Counted from the first letter of the stretch, positions 10,128-35,879 are shown. The stretch: 64,000 bases of DNA from Patescibacteria group bacterium (GCA_041661745.1 JBAZTR010000001.1:15740-79739), one strand, 5' to 3'. A program made the numbers and translations. Notes: generated from the sequence alone by a model not told the origin.

Positions 10128-10202
10128 TCCGGGGTAGCTCAGCGGCAGAGCAGTGGACTGTTAATCCATTGGTCGTGGGTTCGATCCCCACCCCCGGAGC
10201 CA
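10128..10202 (+). tRNA. tRNA-Asn (anticodon GTT)
   Basis: Acceptor stem tccgggg/ccccgga, D-arm tagctcagcggcagagca and anticodon stem gtgga/tccat with loop cuGUUaa. The T-arm is gtgggttcgatccccac, with discriminator G and an encoded CCA. Confidence 0.9.
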
Positions 10203-10317
10203 TGCACCGTACGGTGCATGGCGGAGCCATCAATAAGGTTTTGCTATGTACCAACAGGTGCATGGCGGAGCTATACACCGAATGGTGTCTAGCGGAGCCC
10301 TCACACCATTCGGTGTG
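10203..10317 (+). repeat. array of degenerate tRNA-3'-end-like repeats interleaved with perfect palindromes
   Basis: GGTGCATGGCGGAGC occurs twice (10213-10227 and 10257-10271), followed by AGCGGAGCCC. The GGAGCCA core mimics the tRNA 3' end CCGGAGCCA. Palindromes are catgcaccgt|acggtgcatg, acaccgaatggtgt and cacaccattcggtgtg. Confidence 0.5.
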
Positions 10318-10421
10318 GGGCAAGCCTTTATTGGTTTGTATGGTTTCGCCATGTATCAAAATAACGGTGAACCGCAAAGACCACCAGTGAAAATTGGCGG
10401 TTTTTGTTATACTAAAAATAT

Positions 10422-10679
10422 ATGTTTTATGTTTATATTCTTATTTGTGTCGATAAAAAGTTTTATATTGGTTTTACTTCTGATCTGAAGAAGAGAATTT
10501 TTCAACACAAAAACGGCGAAGTGCTATCTACTAAACCAAGATTGTCGGTTAGATTAGTTTTTTACGAAGCTTATCTTGATAAATATGATGCTCTGCGACG
10601 AGAAAAATATTTGAAGACGGATAAAGGAAAAACAACATTAAAATCAATGCTAAGAGAGTTTTTAAGTAAACAAAAATAG
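10422..10679 (+). CDS. GIY-YIG nuclease superfamily protein (UPF0213/YhbQ-like)
   Basis: MFYVYILICVDKKFYIGFTSDLKKRIFQHKNG... The GIY-YIG motif (YVYIL...FYIGFT...R...H/E) is followed by an 85-aa body. Confidence 0.8.
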   Translation: MFYVYILICVDKKFYIGFTSDLKKRIFQHKNGEVLSTKPRLSVRLVFYEAYLDKYDALRREKYLKTDKGKTTLKSMLREFLSKQK

Positions 10680-10705
10680 CTTCACTTTTTGTTTACACTT
10701 TGTAT

Positions 10706-11119
10706 ATGACCAAAAAAGAAAAGGAGCAGTGTTCCATTGTGAAATTTTTCGACGAACAAGACATCGTCGGGAAAAATTGTTTTGCTTATGCACTTGGTTT
10801 AGATGTTTATCCGAACAAAAATTCCCAGGAGGCGTGGATCGTCCCCAGTTCTGTTGATATCGCAGGCTGGCTTAACGATCTATTAGTGGAGGACTCCTCG
10901 GGTGATATCATTGTTTATTTTGACGCTGATAAGTTGCCTTGTCATATGGGATTGGTGAAGGGTGAATATGTTGAATCAAAATGGAGAGAATCTCACGTTT
11001 ATCGTCATGATATATTCGCTACCCCTTACGGACGAGCTGTAAAGAGATATCGTGTTACTGATTTTGAGCGGCTAAAACTCGCTTGGAAAGATGAGGTGGA
11101 TTGGATGAAAAATCCTTAA
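10706..11119 (+). CDS. hypothetical protein with Cys...His motif pattern (possible papain-like/NlpC-P60-superfamily hydrolase)
   Basis: The ATG at 10706 is preferred over the TTG at 10700. NCFAYALG (Cys) ... LPCHMGLV ... ESHVYRHD (His residues) are ordered like a permuted papain-fold catalytic set. Weak assignment. Confidence 0.45.
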   Translation: MTKKEKEQCSIVKFFDEQDIVGKNCFAYALGLDVYPNKNSQEAWIVPSSVDIAGWLNDLLVEDSSGDIIVYFDADKLPCHMGLVKGEYVESKWRESHVYRHDIFATPYGRAVKRYRVTDFERLKLAWKDEVDWMKNP

Positions 11120-11217
11120 TAATCGATGAGACCCACGTGCTATCCTGACCCCCTGAAACAGCCCCCGAATCATTGATCAAAGGCGAGTTCTGTACCCGTG
11201 TGCGGAGCCAAGAAAAA

Positions 11218-11247
11218 ACATCTATTTATTTAGATGTTTTTTCTTTT
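11218..11247 (+). terminator. rho-independent terminator
   Basis: acatcta-tttatt-tagatgt is followed by TTTTTTCTTTT. Confidence 0.6.
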
Positions 11248-11370
11248 GTGGGGAGCGAACCGGAAGGGGTTTGGGGAAACACGCTGTTTCCCCACCAATA
11301 GCAGAGGAGGGGTGACAGGCCAGCTCATGCTGGCCGCCATAGGGGAACGACGTTCCCCTATGGAATGTGA

Positions 11371-11390
11371 GATCCCCACCCCCGGAGCCA
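11371..11390 (+). repeat. exact 20-bp direct repeat of tRNA-Asn 3' end (att-like)
   Basis: gatccccacccccggagcca is identical to 10183-10202. Confidence 0.7.
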
Positions 11391-11824
11391 AGACTGACAA
11401 ACCGGGCTTAAAGACTCGGATTCTCCTTTATCTTTATCTGCTTATCGATTTTCAGGTTCGAGCGTTGGTTTTTTGCTGTAAGAATACTGTTAATTAAAAT
11501 TGAATATAATTTCTCAGTTATACTAAAAATTGCCACTTTTGACGATGTAATTTGAAAGAGGTAAAATCAACACGAAAATCAAGTAGTAATTTTTGCCATA
11601 CATATAAACATTGATAAATTTTTTACGATTGAATAAGTGACGAGGATTCTAAGAGTAAATATTCGTTCCGCAAATCGCCACATTGGGTCCGACCGCCTTT
11701 AGACGTCCAAACTAGGAGTTTGACCTATCAAACAGTCTAATCTAAACGCTTTTCTTAAAGGTACGGGAATTATCAAACAAAAAAAGAGGTAAATATATAT
11801 TACAGGAAGTTACCAAGAATAGTT

Positions 11825-14800
11825 ATGAAGAATTTAGATTGGGGGAAAATAAATAATGATAGGGATTTTCAACGTTTAGTGAACGATCTTTTTGCATTGG
11901 AAATTAACCACCCTGCTTTTCTTTCAAGCAATCCAGAGATAGGGGCAGATGGTGGTTGGGACGGACGTTATAGCGGATCATACATGGGCCTTAGCGGTGT
12001 TTGGGATTTCCAAGCGAAATGGACTAAACATAATCTTGATGCAGCTTATAAGCAATTACACACGGAGATTAAAAATGAGTTGGAAAAAGCGAAGAAGAAC
12101 AAAGTACAATTTTTATTAGTTGCAACAAACGCTGATTTAAGAATCGGCACTAACGATCATGTCGGTAAACTTGAGAAACTAAATGAGAACAAAAAATTTG
12201 TCGACCAGTTATTTATTTGGCCACGAGCCAACTTAGAAAGTAAAATAACCCAATATCCGCTGTTAAGGCATAACTACTTTGGCGATCCCCAAGAGCCGAC
12301 ATTCGTCCCAGCTCATGTATTTGCAGAATCAGAGCCGCTTCTTAAGGGAGTTTTTGTCGGACGAAAAGAACCAGTAAGTGTTTTAAAGGGATTTATACAA
12401 AAAGATACATCCAATCTCCTCATTATTCATTCTGGAGGTGGCTATGGAAAAACACATTTTATTGTAGAATCTGGAAAAAGTGGAGATTCTCTATGGCCAG
12501 GTGTTCAAACGTGGTTTTGTCGACCTGGAATTAGAGATATTAACGAAGCTATCAATGAGTTAGACCATGAAAAGGATTGCTTAATATTTCTAGATGATGC
12601 TGAAAGATATTTGGATGATGCAAAAAAACTAATTGCTCACATCAAGACATTTTCTCCTGGAAAATTAAAGGTTATATTGTCTTGCCGCAGCTCAGGCAAA
12701 GAAATTGTCAAAAATTTAGCGGATTCGCAAAGGGTGGATAATTATAATTTGCTTGAGTTACCTCATCTTTCCGAAAAGGAACTTGTAGAAATTTTAAATC
12801 TCGCGGCGGATTCAAAAAAGATTGATCATCCAGAAAGAATTGTAAAAGAACTAAACGGAAATCTGTTTTTGATAATCACGACAGGGAAGCTTATTAAAGG
12901 TGGCGACTTAAACCCAGGCCAGGTTAAAAAGCATATCAAAAATAATTTAGATCAAGAAACCGTCAATGCACTTAAGGATGTACTAGACGAACGTAATTCA
13001 AAGGCTTTTTTAAAAGAGCTATCTATTATTGTTCCATTTTCAAAAGAAAAGCGTGGGAATAACGTGCTTGATAAATTGGCAGCCGTTTTGGAATTAAAAG
13101 TAAATTTAATAAACGAAGCTCTGAATAAACTTATTGAGGCAAAAATTCTTCGTGTTGTTGGCGCCTCGGTAAGATTTAATCCTGATATGAAAGGCGATAT
13201 TTATCTTTCTGTAGAATTAGATAAAGAAAATGGGAAAGATTTAGCGAACAAAATGTTTGAGAATTGGTTACCTATTTTTCCTAAACAACTCACAGCAAAC
13301 CTGGCCGCTGCATCTAGACATAAAGATACGAATTCGGCGAACGAAGCCGTGAAGGAACTTTTCCAAAAATGGATTAATGAAACATCTGAGACTTCCGATT
13401 CATTTAAATCTAAAAGATTAGAACTCGCTGCTTCTATTGCTTTTTTAGCCCCTGAAGAGGCAATCGGTTTGGTTTATGCTTATGTAAATTCATCGAATAC
13501 GCAGAATTCATATGGACTAAATCGAGATACTTATGGGCCAGTCATTTACCATGTTTTGCACGTACCTGGATTTGAAAAAGCAATATTAAAATTGATTCTT
13601 TATCTTGCCCAGAAAGACCTTAAGGGCACTTACGATAATTACAAGCCCACCAGTCTTATAAAACAAGCGATATCACCCGTTGAAGTAAATATAGCTTCAG
13701 CTACTCAATCACTAAAGGAATTGTTGGATTGGGTTAGCAAAGAAAATTGTACCGAACTCGAAGCAAGGCTTGCTAGCGATGGTGTCTCGGAGTCCCTTTC
13801 TGGATCGCACGAACATAGGGAAAGTTACGGTAACCAAATAACCTTTGGCAGAAGAATTCTGCGTTATGAAGGTATATACAAAAAACCAGTGGATGAATTT
13901 AGAGATGTAGGAATGGATGTCCTGAAAGAGTTGGTTCTTCATTCCAATGACAAGATTAAAAAAATAGGCGTGGAAATTGTTGACGACATCGGTCACGAGG
14001 CAACCTCCACAAGTGATGATCTTTGGAAGAGGATTCTATCCGATAAAACAAAAGCTATTGAATGGTTAGAGAAATTAATTAGCGAAACAAGTTCTCATGA
14101 GGTGCTTAGTTCTATCGAAGACGTTCTTGTTAGATATTGGGCCAATAATAATATTTATTTAGGTTTGAGCGATAAAATTGCTGGCATACTTAGAAATTTT
14201 CCGAGATCAACGGAATACATTATTTTTCGATATTTTGTGGCTCGTGATTTGATTATTTCCGATTTTAAAAAAATAGAGTCTGGGGCTCCCGAGAGCGATA
14301 GATGGTCTTGGCTTGTTCAGAATCACTTTCGACTCCATGATTTTCCACAGGAAGAGTTGGACGAGGTAGTAAAAAGGTTATCTGATAAATATAAAAGCAA
14401 GGCCGAGATTATTAAATACTTATATGAACTCGAGAATGAAGTAAAAGGAATTACTCAATGGCAGACCATTCCTTTAGTTGAGACTTGGTCAAAATTCAAT
14501 AACCAATCATTTATTGAGATCGCAGATGATGAAAGTTTGTTGAATAGTGTTCCTAATAGATTCCATCTCGGAATTTATAGAGTTGCCTCCGATAGGGATA
14601 AACAATACATAGTGAAATATGCTAGCCGAATCCTAGGAGATTTAAATAATCTTCAACGCCAAGCTGTAGACAATCTTTTAGACCTTATAATACGACATAG
14701 TGTTTCTACGACAGAATTTATGCCGTGGATATCTCAGATTATTGAGAAAGCAGACGATTATCTTAAGAATCTTATTCTTCATCGTTCTTATTTTATTTTT

Positions 14801-15682
14801 AAGGACAGGGAGCAAACAGAAAAAAAAAAGGTTGTGAATATTCTTGAACAGTCTTTAAGTGGTGTAGTCAACAGCAACGTATTAGATATGTTCGATTTCC
14901 TAGTTCACAGTGCCATAAATTGGAATTTACCAAGCGATGATTTAGATAAAATTCGCAAAAAATTATTTGAAATAATAAAAGATATCCCTTCGGTAGATTA
15001 TCACACAGACGATCTATTAAAATTTGCACTTAATGGTGATTTGGATAAGTTTATTGAATTGGTTGAATATCGTCTCAAAAAACAGAGTGAATATTTTAAA
15101 AATAGAGGCGCTGAAAAATTTGATGCAATTCCCTTTGACGGTTTTCGTTCGGCCACGGAGTTAATTAAGAACTATGACGATTTCGCAAAATTGATGGATA
15201 AAATTAATTTTTGGCGAAATGAGGAGCTTTTATTCTCCTTCGATATTGATGGATTTTTGGGTAAAAGCATTGGTGGCCATGATAGTGAACACGGCGACTA
15301 TTTGTTGCACTATATTGGTGACAAAATAAAGACTGGAGATGCAGAAAGTTTGAAAATAGCTACTAATGCTTTTTTTGGCATCTCCTTTGGTGTAGATACA
15401 ATTGATTTGTTTTTGAATTTTTTGATGGCAGCTGAAAAAGCAGGAGTGTCAGATGAGGCAAAAGACGTTTTTACCCACCAGGTGATAAGTGGTAGTTATA
15501 GTTCCGCGGTAGGGCAAGCTCCACCCGCATTAGTAAATAAAAAAGAAGCATTAGAAAAAATGAGCGCCAAATGCCAGCCAGGAATTATAAAAAACTATGT
15601 AGATTCTTTAACTGGATCAATCGCTGACGATATAAAAAGACACCTAGATGAAGGTGAGGAACTTATATCGCCAAAATCGTAA
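11825..15682 (+). CDS. Avs-like defence protein: N-terminal Mrr-type PD-(D/E)xK nuclease domain + STAND P-loop NTPase + long alpha-helical C-terminal (putative sensor) region
   Basis: Residues about 30-75 read ...EINHPAFL...IGADGGWDGRY...VWDFQAKW, the Mrr_cat pattern E...GxDGGxDG...QxK. Walker A is IIHSGGGYGKTHF, Walker B CLIFLDDAERY and sensor-like VILSCRS. The remaining roughly 900 aa are helix-rich (L/K/E/D). 1285 aa, about 33% GC. Confidence 0.65.
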   Translation: MKNLDWGKINNDRDFQRLVNDLFALEINHPAFLSSNPEIGADGGWDGRYSGSYMGLSGVWDFQAKWTKHNLDAAYKQLHTEIKNELEKAKKNKVQFLLVATNADLRIGTNDHVGKLEKLNENKKFVDQLFIWPRANLESKITQYPLLRHNYFGDPQEPTFVPAHVFAESEPLLKGVFVGRKEPVSVLKGFIQKDTSNLLIIHSGGGYGKTHFIVESGKSGDSLWPGVQTWFCRPGIRDINEAINELDHEKDCLIFLDDAERYLDDAKKLIAHIKTFSPGKLKVILSCRSSGKEIVKNLADSQRVDNYNLLELPHLSEKELVEILNLAADSKKIDHPERIVKELNGNLFLIITTGKLIKGGDLNPGQVKKHIKNNLDQETVNALKDVLDERNSKAFLKELSIIVPFSKEKRGNNVLDKLAAVLELKVNLINEALNKLIEAKILRVVGASVRFNPDMKGDIYLSVELDKENGKDLANKMFENWLPIFPKQLTANLAAASRHKDTNSANEAVKELFQKWINETSETSDSFKSKRLELAASIAFLAPEEAIGLVYAYVNSSNTQNSYGLNRDTYGPVIYHVLHVPGFEKAILKLILYLAQKDLKGTYDNYKPTSLIKQAISPVEVNIASATQSLKELLDWVSKENCTELEARLASDGVSESLSGSHEHRESYGNQITFGRRILRYEGIYKKPVDEFRDVGMDVLKELVLHSNDKIKKIGVEIVDDIGHEATSTSDDLWKRILSDKTKAIEWLEKLISETSSHEVLSSIEDVLVRYWANNNIYLGLSDKIAGILRNFPRSTEYIIFRYFVARDLIISDFKKIESGAPESDRWSWLVQNHFRLHDFPQEELDEVVKRLSDKYKSKAEIIKYLYELENEVKGITQWQTIPLVETWSKFNNQSFIEIADDESLLNSVPNRFHLGIYRVASDRDKQYIVKYASRILGDLNNLQRQAVDNLLDLIIRHSVSTTEFMPWISQIIEKADDYLKNLILHRSYFIFKDREQTEKKKVVNILEQSLSGVVNSNVLDMFDFLVHSAINWNLPSDDLDKIRKKLFEIIKDIPSVDYHTDDLLKFALNGDLDKFIELVEYRLKKQSEYFKNRGAEKFDAIPFDGFRSATELIKNYDDFAKLMDKINFWRNEELLFSFDIDGFLGKSIGGHDSEHGDYLLHYIGDKIKTGDAESLKIATNAFFGISFGVDTIDLFLNFLMAAEKAGVSDEAKDVFTHQVISGSYSSAVGQAPPALVNKKEALEKMSAKCQPGIIKNYVDSLTGSIADDIKRHLDEGEELISPKS

Positions 15683-15685
15683 AAT

Positions 15686-16555
15686 ATGGCCTTAATAATT
15701 AATAACAGAATATGGGAATTATCTGAAAAGTTATACATACACTGTTATGAAACTGGTGGATTTGTTGATTTTTTAAAATCTAACGGGATTAATTTACCCG
15801 ATAATTTTTATGGTAACTTTGAGGCCTATGCATTCATGAGTACTGAGCAAAATAATTTTTCTCAGTTCATGCAAAGAGTTCCTTCATATAGATATTTAGC
15901 CATTTTAGAGAAAGTAATTTTTGATGAAAAAATAAAAAATACACAGAGAGATAGCTGGAATTATTACGGAACCTATATTAAAAAATGGTATCCAGAATTA
16001 TTAGACGAAGTAAAAAAATCCAATTTTAAACTAGACATTTCGCAAAACAAAATAGAATTATTAGAAGAAGGAATAAGTGGGGTTCAAAATAGTTTAGATT
16101 TTTTACAATATGATTTTAATGATCCATTTTTAGATTACATAAAAAAAGAAATAAATGAGAGCTATAGAGAAGGACTTTATTTAGCCGTGATGATTCTAAC
16201 CAGAAAATTAATAGAATGCATAATTCATAGAGTTTTTGAAATAGTTTTCAGGGAACGGGATGAAAATGGAAAATATATACAGCAAAATCACCAATTATGG
16301 TATGACACAACTAACGGAAGAATTTTAAATCTTGATAAATTGATTGATAATTTAAAAGCAAATTCATTCGCCTTTTATGATTTCAAAGATTTGATTGAGG
16401 ATTTATGTAGTTTAATCAAGGTATTTAAAGACGAAGTAAATAAAATGGTGCATCGTGATTATAAAATACCCAAATTAGAAGACGTCGAGAAAAAAGATAT
16501 TCCTGGATTATGTAATAAATTACGAAGAGTTTATAAAAGATTTTGTAATCCTTAA
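15686..16555 (+). CDS. hypothetical protein, operonic with upstream STAND NTPase (4-nt spacer)
   Basis: 289 aa, AT-rich, K/N/E/D-rich helical protein with no recognisable catalytic motif. Confidence 0.65.
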   Translation: MALIINNRIWELSEKLYIHCYETGGFVDFLKSNGINLPDNFYGNFEAYAFMSTEQNNFSQFMQRVPSYRYLAILEKVIFDEKIKNTQRDSWNYYGTYIKKWYPELLDEVKKSNFKLDISQNKIELLEEGISGVQNSLDFLQYDFNDPFLDYIKKEINESYREGLYLAVMILTRKLIECIIHRVFEIVFRERDENGKYIQQNHQLWYDTTNGRILNLDKLIDNLKANSFAFYDFKDLIEDLCSLIKVFKDEVNKMVHRDYKIPKLEDVEKKDIPGLCNKLRRVYKRFCNP

Positions 16556-16567
16556 TTATTAACAAGA

Positions 16568-17131
16568 ATGGAAAATCGAGCACACAACATAGAACCATTA
16601 GAAAAAAGAATTAATCGTTTTCAAAATGGTCATCCGATAGAAATAATTGAGACGCTTTTAAATTCTATCACTATTTTTTTTAATAACGAAATACGTTTAA
16701 CGATTGAGCGTGACAATTATCAAACCTCTTTGTTATTTCTCGGGATTCATGCTGCAGCACTGACGATAGCCGAGGGATTTTTCGGTAAAAAGGGTCCGGA
16801 TGGATATAAATTATTTTTAGAAAAATTTGTCGACGGGAAAACCCCGGATACCAAATTTTCTTCAATAGCTGAACCGATTCATAATTGGCGAAATATAGTC
16901 GCCCATCAATGGTTAGGTATTGTCGGATACGATATTGAATATGATTATAATTCGGTAAAAGGCTGGGAAAAACGGGACAACACTATTTTTATTAATCCAA
17001 AAATTTATTGTGAACATTATCTTAATGCTTTTTCCTCTAAGGGTAAACTATGGAAATATCAGGATATATTTACCGAAGAAGAACTATATCAGATCAAGGA
17101 TCGGCTTCTTAACAAATTTTTACGACGTTAA
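16568..17131 (+). CDS. hypothetical protein with HEPN-like Rx4H motif
   Basis: 187 aa. ...EPIHNWRNIVAHQWLG contains R-x4-H (R108...H113), the HEPN ribonuclease signature. It starts 13 nt after the upstream gene. Confidence 0.55.
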   Translation: MENRAHNIEPLEKRINRFQNGHPIEIIETLLNSITIFFNNEIRLTIERDNYQTSLLFLGIHAAALTIAEGFFGKKGPDGYKLFLEKFVDGKTPDTKFSSIAEPIHNWRNIVAHQWLGIVGYDIEYDYNSVKGWEKRDNTIFINPKIYCEHYLNAFSSKGKLWKYQDIFTEEELYQIKDRLLNKFLRR

Positions 17132-17237
17132 ACCGGGAACTTTCCTTCCAACATATCCACGGCCGCGTCCAGTTTGTAGGACTTCCAACCGCTTAAACTG
17201 ATAGTTCGAAGTTTTCGCGCCGCCTGGAGCCAACATA

Positions 17238-17268
17238 ATCTCAGTTTTAATAACTGAGATTTTGTTTT
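17238..17268 (+). terminator. rho-independent terminator closing the AT-rich cassette
   Basis: atctcagtt-ttaat-aactgagat is followed by TTTGTTTT. Confidence 0.55.
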
Positions 17269-21667: not shown

Positions 21668-22156
21668 ATGATTAAAATTAAAGGATTAATAATAGTTATT
21701 ATGTTAAAAATTTCAGAATTCATGGATAAAGACCATGTGTATTTGAATATACTTTTGACGCATTTTTTAGAAGAATGTAAAAAGACTGAAAGTTTATTAA
21801 AAGTACGGAAATTGTTTGAAAAGTTTAAGAGAAATCTTTTGACACACATGGAACTAGAAGACGAGGTTTTGTTTCCACGTTTAAGCGCCTGTCTGGGGTT
21901 TGAGGTCGATTGTCCTTTAACAAGGCGAGCCAGGAATGATCACGCAAAAATTTTGAAGTTAACTGATTTGATTGAAAAGGCACTGGAAAAACAAGATGCG
22001 AAAAAAGTTTTTTCAGTTGGTGATAATTTGAAACATGCAATAGAAGCACACCATGACCGTGAAAAAGAAATCCATTACCCTGTTTCTGATAAATTTATCA
22101 AGAAAGTTGAGTGGTTGATTTTTTTAAGAAATTTTGAGATGAAAAGAAAATATTAA
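21668..22156 (+). CDS. hemerythrin-like (HHE cation-binding) domain protein (start uncertain: 21668/21699/21724)
   Basis: H...E...H pairs appear as THMELEDEVLFP and HAIEAHHDREKEIHYP. Confidence 0.65.
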   Translation: MIKIKGLIIVIMLKISEFMDKDHVYLNILLTHFLEECKKTESLLKVRKLFEKFKRNLLTHMELEDEVLFPRLSACLGFEVDCPLTRRARNDHAKILKLTDLIEKALEKQDAKKVFSVGDNLKHAIEAHHDREKEIHYPVSDKFIKKVEWLIFLRNFEMKRKY

Positions 22157-22255
22157 ATCAGGTTATTTAGAGTGCAGTCCCCGCATAAGATTTATTGATT
22201 ATAAATTAGAGAATTAACTACAATATAAGAACATAACGTTTTAATAATCAATTAT

Positions 22256-22723
22256 ATGATAAAAATAAACACTAAGGCTCCGGAATTTACACTTTTTGAT
22301 CAAGCTGGGGAACAGCATAGTTTAAATGATTACCTTGGAAAATGGGTACTCCTATACTTTTATCCAAAGGACGATACACCTGGGTGCACAAAAGAAGCTT
22401 GTTCTTTTCGTGATAATTTACCCGTTTTTAACGGGTTAAATTTACAAGTTTTAGGTATAAGTACCGATTCCGTGGACAGTCACCGTAGATTCGCCGAAAA
22501 GAATTCTCTGAATTTTACGATTTTATCGGACACATTAAAACAAACGTTAAAAAACTATGATGCCGGAGGCGTTTTTACCAAACGCATATCGTACTTAATC
22601 AATCCCGAAGGTGTAATTAGTAAGATTTATACCAAAGTTAATCCAAGTTTTCATGCAGAGGAAGTAAAAAATGATTTGAGTGTCTTGCAAAATAAAAGTA
22701 GATCCAACAAAATTTCAGTTTAA
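22256..22723 (+). CDS. bcp: thiol peroxidase / peroxiredoxin Bcp (AhpC/TSA family)
   Basis: WVLLYFYPKDDTPGCTKEACSFRD, with the conserved peroxidatic Cys context PxDxTxGCT. Confidence 0.88.
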   Translation: MIKINTKAPEFTLFDQAGEQHSLNDYLGKWVLLYFYPKDDTPGCTKEACSFRDNLPVFNGLNLQVLGISTDSVDSHRRFAEKNSLNFTILSDTLKQTLKNYDAGGVFTKRISYLINPEGVISKIYTKVNPSFHAEEVKNDLSVLQNKSRSNKISV

Positions 22724-22760
22724 ACGACCGGGATTTTGTTGTATCTAAGAAGGTTTATAT

Positions 22761-23261
22761 ATGGTAGGGTTAATTTGTATGAAATATACTTTTACTGCGA
22801 TTCTTCTTTGTCTCTGCGTTCTTGGGGTGGGTTGTGTTTCTGGTTTAAGCCTTACCCCTCAAACAGGAACAACTAATGTTTCTGGGACAAAACTCGATCT
22901 AAGTAATCAGGGGTTTACCGAGGTATCGCAAGATGTTTTTAAACAGACCAGTCTTGTTGAACTCGATCTTTCCGGCAATAATTTAACCGGAGCTATTCCC
23001 GGGGAAATTCGCTTTTTGGCTAATTTGGAAAAACTTGATTTAAGCGATAACGCCATGACCGGTCTGCCGGCCGAAGTCGGTCAGCTTCAAAAACTTAAAA
23101 CGCTTGATTTGTCCAATAATCAATTAACGGGTTTGCCGCTCGAACTTGGTCAATTGTCAGCTTTGGAAACTCTGGATCTGCGCGGCAATTCTTATTCGGC
23201 ACACGATCTTGGTATCATTCGAACAACTCTTTCGCCACAAGTAAATATTTTGGTTGACTAA
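22761..23261 (+). CDS. leucine-rich-repeat lipoprotein/secreted protein
   Basis: Signal/lipobox plus 5 LRR units LxLSxNxLTGLPxExGQLxxLxxLDL. Confidence 0.8.
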   Translation: MVGLICMKYTFTAILLCLCVLGVGCVSGLSLTPQTGTTNVSGTKLDLSNQGFTEVSQDVFKQTSLVELDLSGNNLTGAIPGEIRFLANLEKLDLSDNAMTGLPAEVGQLQKLKTLDLSNNQLTGLPLELGQLSALETLDLRGNSYSAHDLGIIRTTLSPQVNILVD

Positions 23262-23267
23262 AAAAAT

Positions 23268-23456
23268 ATGAAAATTTTAAGAACACGATCCTTCAAGTAT
23301 TGGGAGATCGGTCTCATCAAAATTTGTTTGCTCTCCCTCGGTATTCTCCTCGGCCTGTACTTTTTTGATTATCTGATCGGTTTGTTGTGGTTGTGGTGGT
23401 TGTTGCTAGCTGTGACGACAATTTATTTTATTATCAAACTTATAAGAGAAGGTTAA
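23268..23456 (+). CDS. small membrane protein
   Basis: 62 aa with two hydrophobic helices (LIKICLLSLGILLGLYFF, LLWLWWLLLAVTTIYFII), followed by a terminator. Confidence 0.45.
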   Translation: MKILRTRSFKYWEIGLIKICLLSLGILLGLYFFDYLIGLLWLWWLLLAVTTIYFIIKLIREG

Positions 23457-23468
23457 AAAATAAAAAAA

Positions 23469-23495
23469 CACCCACTGGTTTCTGGGTGATTTTTG
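23469..23495 (+). terminator. rho-independent terminator
   Basis: caccca-ctggtttc-tgggtg is followed by ATTTTT. Confidence 0.55.
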
Positions 23496-23572
23496 GTTTA
23501 AAAAAACCGCGCGTATTTCAGCACGGAAAGGGACCCTTCGACTTAGCTCAGGGTCTTCGAAAGGCGGACGAC

Positions 23573-24091
23573 CTAGATCGTCCGGGGGCGGGGGAGCCAG
23601 CCGGCTTCAACCCCCTCGTTGATCCAACTGATGTGGTGCTCGACTAAAATTATCGAGCTCCTGGTGGCAACGGTAAGCTTGGCCTTGGGGTGGCCGAAAG
23701 GAAGCCAGAACTCAACGTCGGCTACGGCAAAATCCGTTAGAACGTCACGCCGAAGAAGAACACGACGGCGTTCTTCTATGTCCTTAAGCGAGTCGGTGTG
23801 GAGAATCCAGCGGTGAGCCTGTTCAAATGAAATCGTGCCGTAAATTCGGCGAAGTTCACCAACCAGTTCTAGGTAAGGCACACGAGGATCGGTGACAGCC
23901 TGGTTGGCTTGTCTAGCCTTGTTTAGACCCAGGAAGGCCCGACCTAAGTAGGGGTAGGTTCGACCAATAGTTGTGCTATGTGTTAGGAATATGTCCACAA
24001 GGACAAAAGGGGCCAGCTCCACGATCCCTCCAAGAATCGCCGGACTTGATCGAATACGCCAGCAAGGAGAATAGTCTAAAAAAGCTTTCAT
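23573..24091 (-). CDS. hypothetical protein (GC-rich patch)
   Basis: 172-aa ORF, about 58% GC, divergent from the HD-domain gene. No recognisable motif. Confidence 0.45.
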   Translation of the reverse strand: MKAFLDYSPCWRIRSSPAILGGIVELAPFVLVDIFLTHSTTIGRTYPYLGRAFLGLNKARQANQAVTDPRVPYLELVGELRRIYGTISFEQAHRWILHTDSLKDIEERRRVLLRRDVLTDFAVADVEFWLPFGHPKAKLTVATRSSIILVEHHISWINEGVEAGWLPRPRTI

Positions 24092-24173
24092 GTCAACCTA
24101 GACGATTGACATGAGGGTTAATTTGTACTAAAGTGGTGCACTGTCCTTAAACAATTCAAAGAAAGGTAGACCA

Positions 24174-24824
24174 GTGCCCAGCACCACATATTTTGATCCG
24201 TCTGTTTCACTCGAGGCACGCCTGGTCGCTGCCTTCGACGAGTTGGAGGTGGCCGGGGAAGTAAGGGGAGCGGCGGCCGCGCTTCTTGCTCCGCTTCGCA
24301 ACAACGGCCCGATCACGCGCGAGCACTATGAACACAGCATCAGAGTGGCTTTGGTTGCTCGGGCCATCGCACCCCATGCCGGCCTGATCGAAAGGGCCAT
24401 GTTCTACGCCGGTCTGCTGCATGATGTTGGCAAGGCCCGCACGCGGCTTGAGCTTCTCGGCAGGCACGGAAGCTGGTCCGAGGATGACGCCAAGGAAATG
24501 GAAGAGCATGTCGTCGAGAGCTGGCGGATGCTTCAAGGTTCGTTCAACTTTACGTCGAAGGTGGCTCTGCGCCACCACCGTTCGCAAAAGCGGCGTTATC
24601 CGGAGAATCTCCCTCAGGACGATGAAGCCGACCTCTACGCTCGGCATCTCGCCCTGGCCGACAGCTACGACGCCATGCATCGGGTGGACACGAGCACTGG
24701 TGGCCGAGCCCTGACCGGCGAACAGATCAAGGAACGCATGCTCGAGGCTAACCCCGACCTGCGCGATCTGGTCGAAAGGCTCTACCAGGTCGGCGTCTTC
24801 ACAACCACGATCTACGATCCTTAG
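24174..24824 (+). CDS. HD-domain metal-dependent phosphohydrolase
   Basis: HSIRVALVA...LLHDVGK...ALRHH...LADSYDAMH, giving His...HD...H...D spacing of the HD superfamily. Confidence 0.75.
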   Translation: MPSTTYFDPSVSLEARLVAAFDELEVAGEVRGAAAALLAPLRNNGPITREHYEHSIRVALVARAIAPHAGLIERAMFYAGLLHDVGKARTRLELLGRHGSWSEDDAKEMEEHVVESWRMLQGSFNFTSKVALRHHRSQKRRYPENLPQDDEADLYARHLALADSYDAMHRVDTSTGGRALTGEQIKERMLEANPDLRDLVERLYQVGVFTTTIYDP

Positions 24825-24911
24825 TGCTTCACCACCCCTTACGAAAAGGCGGTGGTTTTTTAAAAAAAATAGGGCTCCACATTGTTGGTGTGAAACCCTT
24901 TGAAGTTACGA

Positions 24912-26240
24912 CTAGCAGCAGCCTTTGGACCGTTGTCGTCCCCGAGCCACCCCGGTCTCTAGACGGCGTTGTTCGGCTGCTTTGGGGAGTTCGTTGGCCA
25001 GAACTGCCTCCAGCACGGCCACGGCCTTGTCCACATCATCTTTGTCGTTGTAGATGTGGAAGGACATGCGCATGGCGCCGTCTTCCAGGTTGAGACGGTC
25101 CATGAGCGGGTCGGCACAGAACCGGCCGGCCCGGATGGCGATTCCGGCCTCGCTGAGAGCCGCGACGAAGGATTCGTGATGGATCCCTTTCTTCGGCATG
25201 AACGTGAAGGCTACGAGGGATCCGGAACCTCCATTGTGTACGTTCTGTCCGAGTATGGTTACACCTTTCAATTCTCCGATATGGTGCTGGGCGTACTGGC
25301 CAAGACTTTTGATGTGAGCCTCGACCCGGGCCATTCCGAGTTCTTCCAAGTACCGAACTGCCGCTGCCAAGCCGACGGCCCCGGCCACATTTTGGGTGCC
25401 GGGCTCGAGCAGGTGGGGCATCGGCTTTGTCTCGAAGCTGCGAGTCGTCACCCGGGTGATCATCTCGCCGCCGCCCTTCCATGGTCCCATACGGTCGAAC
25501 ATGTGTGGGGCCACGTAGAGGCCGCCGATGCCGGTTGGTCCGAGCATCTTGTGACCCGAGAAAGCGTAGAAGTCGACATCCAGTTCTTGGACGTTGACCG
25601 GCATGTGCCCCACGACCTGAGCCCCGTCGACGAGCACGGGCACGCCGTGGCGGTGGGCTGCTTCTACGATTTTTGCGATATCGTTTACCATCCCAAGGAC
25701 GTTGGAAATGTGAGGAATAACCAGTAGAACGACATCCTGAAGCCCATCGAGGAAGTCGTCAACTTCCAGGGGGTGATGTAAGAAACAATTTTCACAGAAT
25801 CCCATTACCCTAGTTTCCACGCCCGGATCGTTTTCGAATACTCCTTCTTTGAGGATGTGCCACGGGACGATTCCGGCATGATGATTGTCGTCCGAGAAGA
25901 CGATGGTACCGCACCGATCCTGTTGGTTGATCTCGGGAACAACGAAGGCCCCGGCCACCATGTTGATGGCCTCGGTTGTGCCGGTTGTCCAAACCAAGCA
26001 CTCCGGCTCTTCGGCACCGATGAAGCGGGCAACGGTTGCCCTGGCGCCCTCGATCATCTCAGTAGCGCGACGGGACTCCCGGTAGGAGTTGCCGCGGCCG
26101 GTGTTTGAATTGAACTCCGCCATGAATCTGGTGACAGTATCAATAACAACTTGCGGTTTCTGAGTCGTGGCTGCCGAGTCCAACCAAGTGGTTCCGGGAT
26201 TCGCGGCAAAGAAGGGAAAGCTATCCTTTACGTGGGTCAT
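24912..26240 (-). CDS. cysteine desulfurase, SufS/CsdA-like (class V aminotransferase)
   Basis: WLDSAATTQKP, HHAGIVPW, FSGHKMLGPTGIGGLYV (PLP-Lys) and RAGRFCADP (catalytic Cys loop). About 62% GC. Confidence 0.85.
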   Translation of the reverse strand: MTHVKDSFPFFAANPGTTWLDSAATTQKPQVVIDTVTRFMAEFNSNTGRGNSYRESRRATEMIEGARATVARFIGAEEPECLVWTTGTTEAINMVAGAFVVPEINQQDRCGTIVFSDDNHHAGIVPWHILKEGVFENDPGVETRVMGFCENCFLHHPLEVDDFLDGLQDVVLLVIPHISNVLGMVNDIAKIVEAAHRHGVPVLVDGAQVVGHMPVNVQELDVDFYAFSGHKMLGPTGIGGLYVAPHMFDRMGPWKGGGEMITRVTTRSFETKPMPHLLEPGTQNVAGAVGLAAAVRYLEELGMARVEAHIKSLGQYAQHHIGELKGVTILGQNVHNGGSGSLVAFTFMPKKGIHHESFVAALSEAGIAIRAGRFCADPLMDRLNLEDGAMRMSFHIYNDKDDVDKAVAVLEAVLANELPKAAEQRRLETGVARGRQRSKGCC

Positions 26241-26364
26241 TGTGCCTGTCTCCGCTATTACTGGTTACGTCATTAGCGAAATTTGTGTTAAAGAACAAGG
26301 CACAATAATGTACGCTTTTTTCGATTCCTGTCAATAACCTCTTATAAAAGAAAAACACCCAGTT

Positions 26365-28134
26365 TTAGTTGGATGTTTTTTCTTTTTCCAATTTTAGCCA
26401 CTCTTTTTCCGTTTGAGAAATTTCGTCATCAATGTCTGTCAAACGTTTGGCTTTGTCTGGTGCGTAATCAGTGGGGTTTTCAAAATAGAATTTAAGAATT
26501 TCACCTTTTTCTTTTTCTAGGTTTTTTAGTTTTTCATCAAGCCGTTGTTGAGTCCGAGAAAGTTGGCGAAGCAGTTGAGCATTTTCTTGTTTGTTTTCTT
26601 TTGTCTTTGAAGCCTTTAAAGCCTCTCCGGCCCCACCGGCCTCTTCGGCCTCAACTGTTAGGTCGGCCACGTATTCTTCGTAAGTGCCGGTGTAATGTCG
26701 CACGGTTCCGTTTCGAACTTCGAAAATCGTATCAACAAAAGCATTCATGAAAGTACGAGCGTGGCAAACAATAATGACCGTGCCCTCATAATCTTTTATG
26801 GCTCGGGCTAATACCTCAACCGTTTCCGTGTCCAAATGGTTAGTTGGTTCGTCGAGAATCAAAACGTTATGTTCTTGCAGAATTAGTCGGGCCAAACGTA
26901 CCCGCGCCTTTTCGCCACCCGAAAGAACCCGACAAGTTTTTTCCAAATCATCATGACGGAAAAGGAAGGCACCGGCGGCCGCAAGAATTCGTTCGGCCGG
27001 GGCACTGGCCGGGGCGGCTTTGGTGAGCGCTTGCAAAACCGTCATTTCCGGATTCAAGGTGTCTTCAGACATCTGCGAGAAATAACCAATATTGGCATGC
27101 GGCCACCATTTTAGTTTTCCACCTAAAGAGGGAATCAGATCAGCTAAAGTTTTTAGAAGGGTTGTTTTACCATGACCGTTTTCACCAACAATCGCCACTT
27201 TGGCGCCACGGATAATTTCCAAGGTTATGTTTTGGGCCACGGTTTTTTCCGGATAACCAATAACTAAATCCTCGGCCCGCACTGCCGGACCCGAAGTAAC
27301 CGAAGGGCAGGGAATGCGAAAAGCGGCGGTTGGTAAAGCTGTACCAAGCTCCTTCATTTGCGCCCGAAGTTTGGTAATGTGTTTTAGTTTGCTTTGCGCC
27401 TGTGAAGCCATGCTGGCCTTGTAACGAAAACGATCGACAAATTCCTGGGTGTGACTTATTTCGCGGCGTAATTTTTTATTAGTGCGGCGAGCGAATCCAG
27501 CTTGTTCAGCTTTGTAGTCAAGATAAGTTTCAACATCACCGGGGAATTCCGTTAACTCACCCTTTTCAATCTCCCAGGTTGAAGTGCAAATATTTTGCAT
27601 GGCTTCACGGTCGTGGGAGATTAGAATGAAAGTTCCGGCGTAGTTGCGTAAAAAAGTTTCCAAAAGAAGCAGAGTTGGTAAGTCCAAATAGTTCATTGGT
27701 TCATCCAGCAGTAAAAGATTTGGATTATCAAGTAACATGCGCACAATTTTTACGCGCATTTGATAACCGCCGGAAAGAGCTGTAGGCGGCAAAGCCAAAT
27801 CACCAGCTTTTATACCAAACTTGGCGGCTAGTTTGGCGGCTTCCCATTCAGGTCGGCCACTGGCTTCGGTTAAAAATTGAAGAGTTGAAAGATCGTCGGG
27901 CAAAGTTTCATTTTGCTTGATTACTCCCAACTTGGTCCATGGCATGAATTTGATTTCGCCATTGTCTTTTTCTTCTTCACCGGTGATTAAACGAAAGAGG
28001 GTGGTTTTGCCAGCCCCATTACGTCCGATAAGACCAATATGCGCCCCTTCGGATATTACAAAAGATAGGTCGTCCAGAATTACTTGACGACCATAAGTTT
28101 TTGCTAAATTTTTAGCTTCGAGCATCGGTCTCAT
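26365..28134 (-). CDS. ABC-F family ATPase (tandem ABC domains, no TMD; EttA/ARE-like)
   Basis: Two Walker A motifs (GRNGAGKTT and GENGHGKTT), two signature motifs (LSGGYQMR and LSGGEKAR) and a C-terminal coiled-coil arm. Confidence 0.9.
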   Translation of the reverse strand: MRPMLEAKNLAKTYGRQVILDDLSFVISEGAHIGLIGRNGAGKTTLFRLITGEEEKDNGEIKFMPWTKLGVIKQNETLPDDLSTLQFLTEASGRPEWEAAKLAAKFGIKAGDLALPPTALSGGYQMRVKIVRMLLDNPNLLLLDEPMNYLDLPTLLLLETFLRNYAGTFILISHDREAMQNICTSTWEIEKGELTEFPGDVETYLDYKAEQAGFARRTNKKLRREISHTQEFVDRFRYKASMASQAQSKLKHITKLRAQMKELGTALPTAAFRIPCPSVTSGPAVRAEDLVIGYPEKTVAQNITLEIIRGAKVAIVGENGHGKTTLLKTLADLIPSLGGKLKWWPHANIGYFSQMSEDTLNPEMTVLQALTKAAPASAPAERILAAAGAFLFRHDDLEKTCRVLSGGEKARVRLARLILQEHNVLILDEPTNHLDTETVEVLARAIKDYEGTVIIVCHARTFMNAFVDTIFEVRNGTVRHYTGTYEEYVADLTVEAEEAGGAGEALKASKTKENKQENAQLLRQLSRTQQRLDEKLKNLEKEKGEILKFYFENPTDYAPDKAKRLTDIDDEISQTEKEWLKLEKEKTSN

Positions 28135-28137
28135 ACA

Positions 28138-28629
28138 TTATTCAACCTTTACTACTTCCACTGTTTGATTATTAAACAAAAATTTTTCGCCAACCACTTT
28201 TCCTAAAAGCGCTTTTCCGAGTGGTGAAAGATGCGAAATTTTTCCATGAGCCGGATTAGCTTCTTGCACACCGAGAATTTCGTAAGTCGTTTCTTTTCCA
28301 TTCATAACAAAAGTTACCGTTGAACCCAGGGCGACCCGACCATCAGTGTTGGCTTTGATAACCACGGCGCTTTTAAGTTTTTCCTCAAGAATGGTGATGC
28401 GAGAATTAATTTGTCGCAAACGTCCCTTGGCCATTTGGTATGCGGCGTTTTCGGAAAAGTCGCCCATTTCGGCGGTGCGTTGAACTTCTTTAATAGCTGG
28501 TTGACGTTGATTTTTTAATAAGTCCTGCAATTCATTTTTGTAACGCTGAATAGCGGCTGGCGACAAAAAAGCGTCAGACACCTTTTTGGTGCCCTCGAGA
28601 ATTTCCGACTTTCTTGTGGGGAGTCGCAT
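28138..28629 (-). CDS. greA: transcription elongation factor GreA
   Basis: 163 aa. N-terminal coiled-coil with GDFSENAAY, then a C-terminal FKBP-like domain. Confidence 0.9.
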   Translation of the reverse strand: MRLPTRKSEILEGTKKVSDAFLSPAAIQRYKNELQDLLKNQRQPAIKEVQRTAEMGDFSENAAYQMAKGRLRQINSRITILEEKLKSAVVIKANTDGRVALGSTVTFVMNGKETTYEILGVQEANPAHGKISHLSPLGKALLGKVVGEKFLFNNQTVEVVKVE

Positions 28630-28686
28630 AGCGCCCTTTATAATAAGTTATTTTCGCGAAAAAGAAAAACCGCGAGCCTTGAGGAG

Positions 28687-29304: not shown

Positions 29305-29380
29305 GTTTACCTCGATGGGGTTGGGAAAAATCTTGGTTGAATACTTTATGTGTTTTCTCTTGATTTGTCAATGATTAAAA

Positions 29381-29405: not shown

Positions 29406-29428
29406 CGAGCGAGGCTCGACGAAGGTGG

Positions 29429-35875: not shown

Positions 35876-35879
35876 AAAT

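What the first reader, a model, noticed from the sequence alone, without database searches (positions are those of the whole stretch)
11825..17131. Candidate novel three-gene defence cassette: Mrr-nuclease-STAND NTPase (Avs-like) plus two tightly linked small genes, one with a HEPN Rx4H motif
The 1285-aa protein combines an N-terminal Mrr_cat-like PD-(D/E)xK signature (IGADGGWDG...DFQAKW) with a STAND-type P-loop NTPase (Walker A GGGYGKT, Walker B LIFLDDAE, sensor-like VILSCRS) and about 900 aa of helical repeats. This is the effector-NTPase-sensor layout of antiviral STAND (Avs) proteins. Described Avs systems are mostly single-gene. Here two additional ORFs of 289 aa and 187 aa follow with 4-nt and 13-nt spacers. 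The second carries WRNIVAH (R-x4-H), the HEPN RNase signature. The whole block is about 33% GC in a roughly 45% GC genome, begins just after an att-like tRNA repeat and ends at a terminator. A nuclease-STAND with obligate HEPN and unknown partners would be a previously undescribed variant, particularly in a CPR-like genome.
Basis: partly seen in the sequence, partly recalled or inferred. Interest (0 to 1): 0.85.

Follow-up and report, generated by a model that had tools for sequence, protein, structure and literature searches.

The report
STAND-plus-two-HEPN cassette trailing restriction systems
This is a probable three-gene anti-phage cassette from a candidate-phyla-radiation (CPR) bacterium, made of a large Avs-like sensor ATPase with an Mrr-type nuclease head and two small HEPN-fold proteins; in related genomes it moves as one precise block and usually sits at the tail of different restriction-modification systems, so it is an undescribed variant of known defence themes, not a new principle.

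Summary
The three ORFs, their motifs and the low GC are real. A (1285 aa) is a STAND NTPase of the Pfam nSTAND5 clade. Its N-terminal domain is a divergent Mrr-type PD-(D/E)xK domain, supported only by transitive homology. C (187 aa) is a canonical HEPN protein with an invariant R-N-x3-H motif.

The block from A's ATG to C's stop is shared at 88-92% DNA identity by five contigs whose flanks differ. In four of them it directly follows a type II (DpnII-like or MutH-like) or type III R-M system. In relatives whose A is 62% and 77% identical to the window's, it follows a type III and an MmeI-type system. The window copy has no R-M and keeps only a decayed HTH gene upstream.

The genes are not an obligate trio. 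A-B is the conserved core down to 43% identity. C is an exchangeable third slot. A, B and C each also occur alone in defence islands.

Verdict: a real defence cassette and a new variant of known kinds (Avs-like STAND; R-M-linked HEPN). Function is inferred, not shown. Interest is moderate.

The parts
11600..11793 (+). Decayed remnant of a small HTH_17/excisionase-type gene. In relatives this gene heads the 'HTH - R-M - A-B-C' island.
   Evidence: Window 11610-11793 matches L005 3750-3933 at 67%. The window frame reads ...FFTIE*VTRILRV...DRL*TSKLGV*PIKQSNLNAFL with three in-frame stops. The equivalent ORF in L101 is a PF12728 HTH_17 gene.
11825..12349 (+). A, aa 1-175: divergent Mrr-type PD-(D/E)xK domain, the predicted DNase effector. 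Conserved residues are E26, D42, D46 and Q63-x-K65.
   Evidence: The residues are invariant or nearly so in 35 homologues. The window sequence has no direct Pfam or PDB hit. In a 40-member profile of the domain, 8 members hit Pfam Mrr_cat (best E 6.6e-05), the only family matched by more than two members. hhalign against E. coli Mrr aligns 99 columns in register on DGGxDG and QAK, with P = 0.012. The domain is always followed by a STAND NTPase.
12350..13090 (+). A, about aa 176-422: STAND P-loop NTPase module of the nSTAND5 clade. Walker A GGGYGKT is at 204-210, Walker B LIFLDDAE at 253-260, and R288 is the candidate sensor arginine.
   Evidence: PF25199 matches aa 193-289 at 22.2 bits, below the cut-off of 34. 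PF25199 is precomputed for about 70 of 74 homologues. G208, K209, D257 and R288 are invariant and D258 and R261 nearly invariant. The domain boundary is approximate.
13091..15682 (+). A, about aa 423-1285: conserved C-terminal region, the presumed sensor. It includes the invariant RFNPDMKGD motif at aa 450-458.
   Evidence: Length and many residues are conserved across the whole family, which is about 1265-1350 aa long. No Pfam repeat family matches. It was not modelled. Relatives swap parts of it, for example for SLFN_AlbA_2 in L082.
15686..16555 (+). B: a two-domain protein. The N-terminal domain (aa 1-125) has no known relative. The C-terminal domain (aa 147-289) is a HEPN fold with a non-canonical motif, N252-x3-H256-x-D258-Y259, plus R173, K174, E177 and R182.
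16568..17131 (+). C: canonical HEPN protein with H105-x-W-R108-N109-x2-A-H113-Q-W. It is the predicted metal-independent RNase and occupies an exchangeable third slot.
17159..17261 (+). Downstream boundary: a 74-nt segment shared with L005, followed by a terminator-like hairpin at 17237-17261.
   Evidence: Window 17159-17232 matches L005 14822-14895 at 78%. The hairpin has a 10-bp stem and a T-run.

Best explanation
The block is a horizontally mobile anti-phage cassette.

A is an Avs-like STAND ATPase. The inferred mechanism is that its roughly 860-aa C-terminal region binds a phage-derived ligand, that ATP-dependent oligomerisation through the P-loop module brings the N-terminal Mrr-type nuclease domains together, and that these then cut DNA.

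B is A's dedicated, translationally coupled partner in this clade. It is a variant HEPN protein, inferred to act as a second RNA-directed effector or as a regulator.

C is a catalytically competent HEPN RNase occupying a swappable third position.

The cassette is normally appended to the 3' end of a restriction-modification operon, often with A's start overlapping the last R-M gene's stop, and is presumably co-transcribed with it. This would give layered defence: DNA restriction first, then a suicidal or dormancy response if restriction fails. The window copy has lost the R-M genes and its HTH gene, but retains intact A, B and C.

Shown here: domain identities, block mobility, R-M adjacency and purifying selection. 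Inferred: every step of activation and every target.
For: - STAND identity: Walker A and B and the sensor arginine are conserved, and PF25199 is found across the family.
- Mrr-like N-terminus: supported. The domain occurs only in front of STAND NTPases. Methanoculleus relatives replace it, as expected for a swappable effector.
- HEPN fold of B and C. C carries an invariant RNx3H motif.
- Precise mobility: the block is shared at 88-92% nt from A's ATG to C's stop, with unrelated or swapped neighbours.
- R-M adjacency, five of the seven A-B loci with enough upstream sequence: type III mod-res in L005 and L099; Dam/DpnII/MTase in L101; MTase/MutH-like in L102; MmeI-type in L100. More distant A homologues sit inside type I operons.
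- Defence-island company: SIR2, Cas1/Cas4-like, NucS-like, AbiJ_NTD4 and toxin-antitoxin genes.
- Wide patchy spread: CPR, Acidobacteriota, KSB1, Omnitrophota and several archaeal phyla.
- Purifying selection: dN/dS 0.04-0.24.
- Foreign composition: low GC.
- Precedent: at least 16 HEPN clades are already known to be R-M-linked, with PrrC as the model (PMC3710099).
Against: - There is no experimental evidence at all, and no PADLOC model matches.
- The window protein itself is below threshold for PF25199 and gives no Mrr_cat hit.
- A's N-terminal domain and sensor were not modelled.
- A occurs without B or C in most of its family, so B and C may be unnecessary for A.
- B and C occur without A.
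- C has a separate history from A-B.
- The window and L104 lack any adjacent R-M, so R-M coupling is not required for the cassette to persist.
- B lacks the catalytic arginine of Rx4-6H.
Confidence: 0.62

Rival explanations
1. Co-located but independent modules. A is a self-sufficient single-gene Avs-like defence protein. B and C are separate R-M-linked HEPN abortive-infection or toxin genes that sit beside it only because defence genes cluster and are exchanged as neighbours. There is no physical or regulatory interaction among the three.
For: - Most A homologues are solitary or have unrelated neighbours.
- A B homologue sits alone between hsdM and hsdS, and another sits in a non-defence context.
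- C homologues sit next to a Bsp6I R-M and at the end of a helicase operon, without A or B.
- C's history is decoupled from A-B.
- A, B and C share no adaptor domain.
Against: - A-B adjacency with 0-16 nt spacers is kept from 94% down to 43% A identity, in at least 10 loci seen directly and about 8 more inferred from matching contig lengths.
- The homology block begins at A's ATG and ends exactly at C's stop in five different contexts. That is hard to obtain from three independent genes.
Confidence: 0.22
2. PrrC-style guard of restriction. The cassette monitors the upstream R-M system, or senses phage anti-restriction proteins. It unleashes the HEPN RNase(s) only when restriction is neutralised. 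A acts as the NTP-dependent switch, taking the role of PrrC's ABC ATPase domain.
For: - A's start overlaps the stop of the last R-M gene in L005, L099 and L100.
- The same cassette, at 88% identity or more, follows three different R-M types. In L101 and L005, which share outer flanks, the R-M module has been swapped while A-B-C stayed.
- The PrrC precedent and the predicted R-M-linked HEPN clades support the idea (PMC3710099).
- Systems triggered by anti-restriction proteins are known (bioRxiv 10.1101/2023.04.06.535777, title, abstract start and term counts only).
Against: - A guard that binds one R-M complex should not tolerate R-M types with unrelated subunits.
- The cassette persists intact without any R-M in the window and in L104.
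- A has its own nuclease-like head and a large sensor, as in Avs proteins that bind phage structural proteins directly.
- The architecture differs from PrrC: a STAND rather than an ABC ATPase, and separate polypeptides.
Confidence: 0.1
3. Addiction (toxin-antitoxin-like) module. B is a HEPN-type toxin and the third gene is its neutraliser: C in the window, and a Panacea-domain protein in L100. The pair stabilises the R-M and STAND island rather than sensing phage.
For: - In L100 the third slot holds a SocA_Panacea antitoxin-domain protein, E 2e-09.
- HEPN proteins are classic toxins and work as dimers, so a B-C heterodimer is conceivable (general knowledge; PMC3710099).
- The third slot is exchangeable.
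Against: - C carries the full catalytic motif and B does not, the reverse of what this model expects.
- B occurs with no plausible antitoxin (L097, L104, L026, L008).
- C occurs without B.
- No MNT-type partner is present.
- The Panacea case is a single locus.
Confidence: 0.06

Closest known systems
Avs (antiviral STAND) proteins, especially Avs3/Avs4 with N-terminal Cap4- or Mrr-like nucleases (Gao et al. 2020/2022, recalled from my own knowledge; wider survey in PMC13581612)
   Same: Both have the tripartite layout of an N-terminal nuclease-type effector, a STAND P-loop NTPase and a large C-terminal region. Both are located in defence islands, have a patchy cross-phylum distribution, and swap their effector and sensor ends.
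   Different: No PADLOC model, Avs included, matches A, and profiles of A's N-terminal domain find no solved structure, Avs3/Avs4 included. The NTPase belongs to Pfam's nSTAND5 clade. This clade has a conserved, translationally coupled HEPN-fold partner (B) plus a third HEPN slot (C), and is attached to R-M operons. The ligand is unknown.
PrrC / EcoprrI and the predicted R-M-linked HEPN clades (Anantharaman et al. 2013, PMC3710099)
   Same: HEPN RNase-type proteins are encoded inside or next to R-M operons together with a regulatory NTPase. The idea of a second line of defence behind restriction is shared.
   Different: In PrrC the NTPase (ABC type) and the HEPN domain are one polypeptide tied to one type Ic system. 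Here the NTPase is a STAND protein with its own nuclease head, the HEPN proteins are separate genes, and the same cassette follows type II, type III and MmeI-type systems, or none.
HEPN-STAND fusion proteins noted in PMC3710099 (for example Npun_F6454 and a Bacillus cereus protein)
   Same: Both combine HEPN and STAND NTPase modules in a presumed conflict system.
   Different: Those are single polypeptides with HEPN as the N-terminal effector. Here the N-terminal effector is Mrr-like, and HEPN is supplied in trans by one or two downstream genes.
MNT-HEPN (HepT/MntA) toxin-antitoxin systems and AbiV
   Different: No MNT nucleotidyltransferase partner is present. C has about 55 extra C-terminal residues including a small beta-sheet. 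B has an extra N-terminal domain and lacks the motif arginine. Neither B nor C reaches any Pfam family's cut-off; B's only weak hit is sub-threshold DUF5677.

Membership tests
STAND NTPase, Pfam nSTAND_NTPase5 (PF25199) | Walker A GxxxxGK[ST] and Walker B hhhhD[DE] | tested here: met
   GGGYGKT is at aa 204-210 and LIFLDDAE at 253-260. G208, K209 and D257 are invariant and D258 nearly invariant in 35 homologues.
STAND NTPase, Pfam nSTAND_NTPase5 (PF25199) | Profile match at or above Pfam's gathering score | tested here: inconclusive
   The window protein scores 22.2 bits against a cut-off of 34. About 70 of 74 homologues carry a precomputed PF25199 hit. Relatives reach E 9.5e-14, and L082 scores 34.3 bits. 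Membership holds at family level, but the window protein itself is below threshold.
STAND NTPase, Pfam nSTAND_NTPase5 (PF25199) | Helical and winged-helix domains after the P-loop, followed by a large repeat or sensor region | not tested
Conserved motifs such as RFNPDMKGD (aa 450-458) exist, but their fold is unknown.
Avs1-5 (AVAST) as defined in PADLOC | Match to the family HMMs | tested here: not met
   PADLOC gives only two insignificant hits for A: PDC-M58A at E 0.0038 and WGR_XIII at E 0.011.
Avs1-5 (AVAST) as defined in PADLOC | Direct recognition of a phage protein, such as terminase or portal, leading to oligomerisation | not testable with these tools
   This needs co-expression, binding or structural experiments.
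Mrr_cat (PF04471) PD-(D/E)xK nuclease | Profile match to Mrr_cat | tested here: inconclusive
   No hit for the window domain or for 25 close relatives. In a broader set of 40 homologous domains, 8 hit Mrr_cat (best E 6.6e-05), the only recurrent family.
Mrr_cat (PF04471) PD-(D/E)xK nuclease | Catalytic D ... (E/Q)-x-K triad, in register with Mrr | tested here: met
   D42 and D46 are invariant; Q63 and K65 are at least 90% conserved. hhalign puts aDGGwDG on Mrr's gDGGIDG and fQAK on vQAKR over 99 columns, with P = 0.012 and probability only 3.6%.
Mrr_cat (PF04471) PD-(D/E)xK nuclease | Alpha-beta-beta-beta-alpha-beta restriction-endonuclease fold | not tested
   No structure model of aa 1-175 was made. 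No PDB sequence hit was found with either profile.
HEPN superfamily - protein C | Helical-bundle HEPN fold | tested here: met
HEPN superfamily - protein C | Rx4-6H motif with a polar residue after R | tested here: met
   R108-N109-I-V-A-H113 is invariant in 120 homologues. The criteria come from PMC3710099.
HEPN superfamily - protein B (aa 147-289) | Helical-bundle HEPN fold | tested here: met
HEPN superfamily - protein B (aa 147-289) | Rx4-6H motif | tested here: not met
   H256 and N252 are invariant, but the position five residues before H256 is not R. Other invariant basic and acidic residues are R173, K174, E177 and R182. PMC3710099 describes active families of this kind, so catalysis is neither excluded nor shown.
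PrrC-like R-M-linked anticodon nuclease | Encoded within or adjacent to an R-M operon | tested here: inconclusive
   Met in L005, L099, L100, L101 and L102/103. Not met in the window itself or in L104.
PrrC-like R-M-linked anticodon nuclease | ABC-type NTPase fused to the HEPN nuclease in one polypeptide | tested here: not met
   The NTPase is STAND-type, and the HEPN proteins are separate genes.
MNT-HEPN toxin-antitoxin | Adjacent minimal nucleotidyltransferase (MNT) antitoxin gene | tested here: not met
   No nucleotidyltransferase family was found in the cassette or in the neighbours that were scanned.

The most novel reading that the evidence does not exclude
A-B-C is a type-agnostic 'restriction back-up' module. 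It is a STAND switch that plugs into the 3' end of any R-M operon. It detects a generic signature of failed restriction or of phage anti-restriction activity, then fires an Mrr-type DNase and one or two HEPN RNases. The third (C) slot is exchanged among lineages to escape phage inhibitors. That would be a portable generalisation of the PrrC principle, and a major defence strategy in CRISPR-poor CPR bacteria.
Probability: 0.1. Interest if true: 0.8.

Novelty: new variant of a known kind. Interest (0 to 1): 0.5.

Why it matters
By my recollection, not checked here, CPR/Patescibacteria have tiny genomes, mostly lack CRISPR and are thought to rely heavily on restriction-modification. This compact cassette rides behind R-M systems of several unrelated types. 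It pairs an Avs-like sensor with HEPN proteins supplied in trans. If it works as proposed, it would show how layered immunity is assembled from interchangeable parts in these organisms.

It would also add a multi-gene STAND architecture to a class usually described as single-gene, and it would name two uncharacterised HEPN families: B, with about 90 clusters, and C, with more than 170 clusters, mostly in CPR.

The pattern of exchange is a clean natural experiment in defence-island modularity: the R-M module is swapped upstream, C is swapped downstream, and A-B is held constant. None of this is a new principle. STAND defence, HEPN effectors and R-M-linked back-up nucleases are all established ideas.

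Tried and rejected
- **Direct profile searches** of A, B and C against Pfam, PADLOC, NCBIfam and PHROGs gave only sub-threshold hits.
- **PDB sequence searches** with A, and with two profiles of its N-terminal domain, found nothing. The narrow profile against E. coli Mrr also gave nothing, probability 0.8%. Only the broadened profile gave an in-register alignment.
- **A PDB search with Mrr's catalytic domain**, meant to enrich the target side, found only LlaBIII, so the Mrr comparison could not be strengthened.
- **A shared homotypic adaptor domain** between A and B, or B-C homology, was tested by hhalign and rejected.
- **Remote B or C relatives beside distant A homologues** were tested with family HMMs and not found.
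- **Phage or plasmid carriage:** there were no hits in the plasmid collection for A, in the annotated phage collection for B or C, or in IMG/VR for B or C.
- **The att idea**, that the tRNA repeat delimits the cassette, was rejected. The repeat pair encloses a different islet, and there is no copy after C.
- **Remnants of mod or res genes** upstream of A in the window were not found. Only the HTH remnant survives.
- **Literature:** a search for 'nSTAND5' found nothing relevant. No supplements of the 2026 STAND survey are held, so I could not check whether this clade is among its 589 clades.
- **Structure libraries:** AFDB Foldseek was unavailable. Foldseek against the PDB gave no significant hit for B and nothing for its N-terminal domain.

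Full report
**1. What is there**

Window 11825-17131 holds three same-strand ORFs: A (1285 aa), B (289 aa) and C (187 aa). They are separated by 3 and 12 nt. The block is 34.4% GC against 45.5% for the rest of the window, and it is the lowest-GC 5.3-kb stretch in the window.

The proteins are GenBank MFA6131467.1 (A), MFA6131468.1 (B) and locus tag WC702_00160 (C). All are annotated 'hypothetical' in a Patescibacteria (CPR) metagenome-assembled genome.

The tRNA-Asn gene lies at 10128-10202, and its last 20 nt recur exactly at 11371-11390. That pair encloses a separate 1.17-kb islet with a GIY-YIG gene and a DUF7689-like ORF. The cassette starts 435 nt beyond the second copy, and no further copy follows C, so the att-like repeat does not delimit it. 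A terminator-like hairpin lies 106 nt after C.

**2. Protein A**

Direct profile searches give only a sub-threshold nSTAND_NTPase5 hit: PF25199, 22 bits against a cut-off of 34. PADLOC and NCBIfam give nothing significant.

A nevertheless belongs to a sharply defined family of proteins about 1265-1350 aa long. Nearly all of its 74 clusters carry PF25199. They come from Paceibacterota, Moranbacteria, Uhrbacteria, Acidobacteriota, KSB1, Omnitrophota, Armatimonadota, Methanobacterium, Bathyarchaeia, Theionarchaea and Halobacteria. That is the patchy spread expected of a horizontally transferred defence gene. Walker A (G208, K209), Walker B (D257, D258), R261 and R288 are invariant or nearly so.

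The N-terminal 175 aa conserve E26, D42, D46 and Q63-x-K65. At first this domain matched nothing:
- No Pfam family in 25 members, apart from one Cap4_nuclease hit at E 0.036.
- No PDB sequence.
- hhalign probability of 0.8% against E. coli Mrr.

An exhaustive phmmer search of 1.84 billion representatives found 174 proteins with this domain. Almost all have the same length of about 1270-1300 aa. The shorter ones carry AAA_16, nSTAND5, nSTAND3, NB-ARC or NACHT.

A broader 40-sequence profile built from those hits changed the picture. Eight members hit Pfam Mrr_cat (best E 6.6e-05), and it was the only family hit by more than two members. hhalign against E. coli Mrr aligned 99 columns in register: DGGwDG on Mrr's DGGIDG, fQAK on vQAKR and LvvaTN on vfiTTsG, with P = 0.012.

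I accept 'divergent Mrr-type PD-(D/E)xK domain' as the best reading. It rests on transitive homology and motif register, not on a structure. Methanoculleus-type relatives match only from residue ~187 onward and have another N-terminus. L082 replaces part of the C-terminus with SLFN_AlbA_2 and HATPase_c_4. Such end-swapping is typical of STAND defence proteins. The roughly 860-aa C-terminal region was not modelled, and Pfam sees no TPR.

**3. Proteins B and C**

So the cassette carries two HEPN-fold proteins, not one. B and C show no profile-level similarity to each other or to A.

**4. Is it a unit?**

Yes, but a layered one. At the DNA level the window shares 88-92% identity with L005, L101 and L102/L103. 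Every pairwise block starts within 1-4 nt of A's ATG and runs to within about 30 nt of C's stop, reaching the stop itself in most comparisons. Outside the block the loci are unrelated or differently organised. L099, where A is 62% identical, has the same A-B-C order.

A-B adjacency with 0-16 nt spacers holds down to 43% A identity, as in L104 with a 0-nt spacer. It was seen directly in at least 10 loci and is inferred from matching contig lengths in about 8 more.

The trio is not obligate:
- A homologues at 55-58% identity in Acidobacteriota and Moranbacteria lack B.
- Neighbours of more distant A homologues include no B or C relatives, even by HMM.
- A B homologue sits between hsdM and hsdS of a type I system, and another sits alone.
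- C homologues sit 4 nt upstream of a Bsp6I restriction gene and at the end of a DEAD/ResIII helicase operon.

C also has its own history. Among the four close cassettes, A is 89-94% and B 93-96% identical at the nucleotide level, but C is only 73-78%. Between the window and L005, dS is 0.26 for A and 0.10 for B, but saturated at about 2.5 for C. dN/dS is low for all three, at 0.10, 0.24 and 0.06. That pattern fits replacement of C by other alleles of its family, not relaxed or positive selection. In L100, where A is 77% identical, the third slot holds an unrelated SocA_Panacea-domain protein.

**5. Context: the tail of restriction-modification operons**

| Locus | Genes directly upstream of A |
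|---|---|
| L005 | HTH_17, type III mod, res |
| L099 | mod, res |
| L101 | HTH_17, Dam-like MTase, DpnII endonuclease, N6_N4 MTase |
| L102/L103 | N6_N4 MTase, MutH/Sau3AI-like endonuclease |
| L100 | SNF2-PLD helicase, Schlafen-like ATPase, MmeI-type methyltransferase |

In L005, L099 and L100, A's ATG overlaps the preceding stop codon by 4 nt. L101 and L005 share their outer flanks at 87% identity but carry different R-M modules between the HTH gene and A. Thus the R-M was swapped while A-B-C stayed in place.

More distant A homologues lie inside type I operons (L032, L034, L082). Others lie next to SIR2, Cas1/Cas4-like, NucS-like or AbiJ_NTD4 genes.

Of the seven A-B loci with enough upstream sequence, five have an R-M directly upstream. 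The window and L104 do not. In the window, the 184 nt before A are homologous to the HTH gene of L005 but carry three in-frame stops. No mod or res remnant survives. The window copy is therefore a trimmed derivative of a larger 'HTH - R-M - A-B-C' island, with A, B and C still intact.

**6. Mechanism**

Best-supported reading: A is an Avs-like STAND switch. Ligand binding by the C-terminal region, ATP-dependent oligomerisation and activation of the N-terminal Mrr-type DNase are all inferred by analogy with Avs proteins (my own knowledge, and PMC13581612 for the breadth of STAND defence). B is a clade-specific partner, translationally coupled to A, and would be an extra RNA-directed effector or regulator. 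C is an exchangeable HEPN RNase. The cassette is presumably co-transcribed with an upstream R-M, which would give layered defence.

The 2013 HEPN survey already reports at least 16 R-M-linked HEPN clades and proposes a PrrC-like back-up role for them. It also notes HEPN-STAND fusions.

The rivals are independent co-located modules, a strict PrrC-style guard, and a B/third-gene toxin-neutraliser pair. They are weighed in the Rival explanations section. None is excluded, and no step of activation has been shown.

**7. Novelty and verdict**

The kinds involved are all known: STAND/Avs-like defence, Mrr-type effectors, HEPN effectors and R-M-linked back-up nucleases.

The following was not found described, neither in the libraries searched nor in the papers read:
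- this specific cassette;
- the two HEPN families B and C;
- the trans arrangement of HEPN partners with an Mrr-STAND protein;
- the cassette's precise shuttling behind R-M systems of unrelated types.

I could not check whether A's clade is listed among the 589 clades of the 2026 survey, because its supplements are not held. I rate this a new variant of a known kind, of moderate interest. All of its functional content remains inference.

Noticed in passing
window 10128-11390: The last 20 nt of tRNA-Asn (10183-10202) are repeated exactly at 11371-11390. The two copies enclose a 1.17-kb islet with a GIY-YIG gene (10422-10679) and a DUF7689-like ORF (10700-11119), and no integrase. It looks like a small integrated or decayed element, separate from the cassette.
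   Followed up: partly
window 10199-10301: Three copies of a 32-nt hairpin-forming repeat (75-100% identical) lie directly after the tRNA-Asn gene (D1/I3).
   Followed up: no
window 22000-31000 and 35000-36000: There are strong composition swings: GC 0.34 at 22-23 kb, GC 0.55-0.59 at 24-26 kb and 29-31 kb, and AT skew -0.36 at 35-36 kb. Rfam finds only the tRNA in the whole window, so the GC-rich blocks are not rRNA.
   Followed up: no
L034 7162-8004 and L096 7839-8759: AbiJ_NTD4-type proteins, from a HEPN abortive-infection family, sit beside an A homologue (L034, E 6e-17, overlapping A's start) and beside a B homologue (L096, weak hit). Both are inside type I R-M operons. This is a second, independent HEPN-STAND-R-M association.
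   Followed up: partly
L100 11891-12454: A SocA_Panacea antitoxin-domain protein (E 2e-09), also 187 aa long, occupies the position of C after A-B but is unrelated to C. It hints that the third slot might hold a neutraliser.
   Followed up: partly
L002 6587-7969: In a Methanobacterium genome, a SIR2_2 gene lies 31 nt upstream of a 30%-identical A homologue, near an integrase. It may be a different effector partner for the same STAND family in archaea.
   Followed up: no
L042, L047, L049, L050, L054, L062, L070, L078, L083 (upstream of A homologues): A conserved 278-300 aa same-strand gene lies 35-102 nt (mostly about 87 nt) upstream of A homologues of about 30% identity in nine loci. Its only hit is a weak, sub-threshold PIN match. 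It may be another clade-specific partner.
   Followed up: no
L101 1-486, L104 993-1733, L095 10167-11441: Serine recombinase genes (Resolvase/Recombinase) lie within a few kb of A-B(-C) or C loci in three contigs. They are possible vehicles for the islands' mobility. None was seen near the cassette in the window.
   Followed up: no
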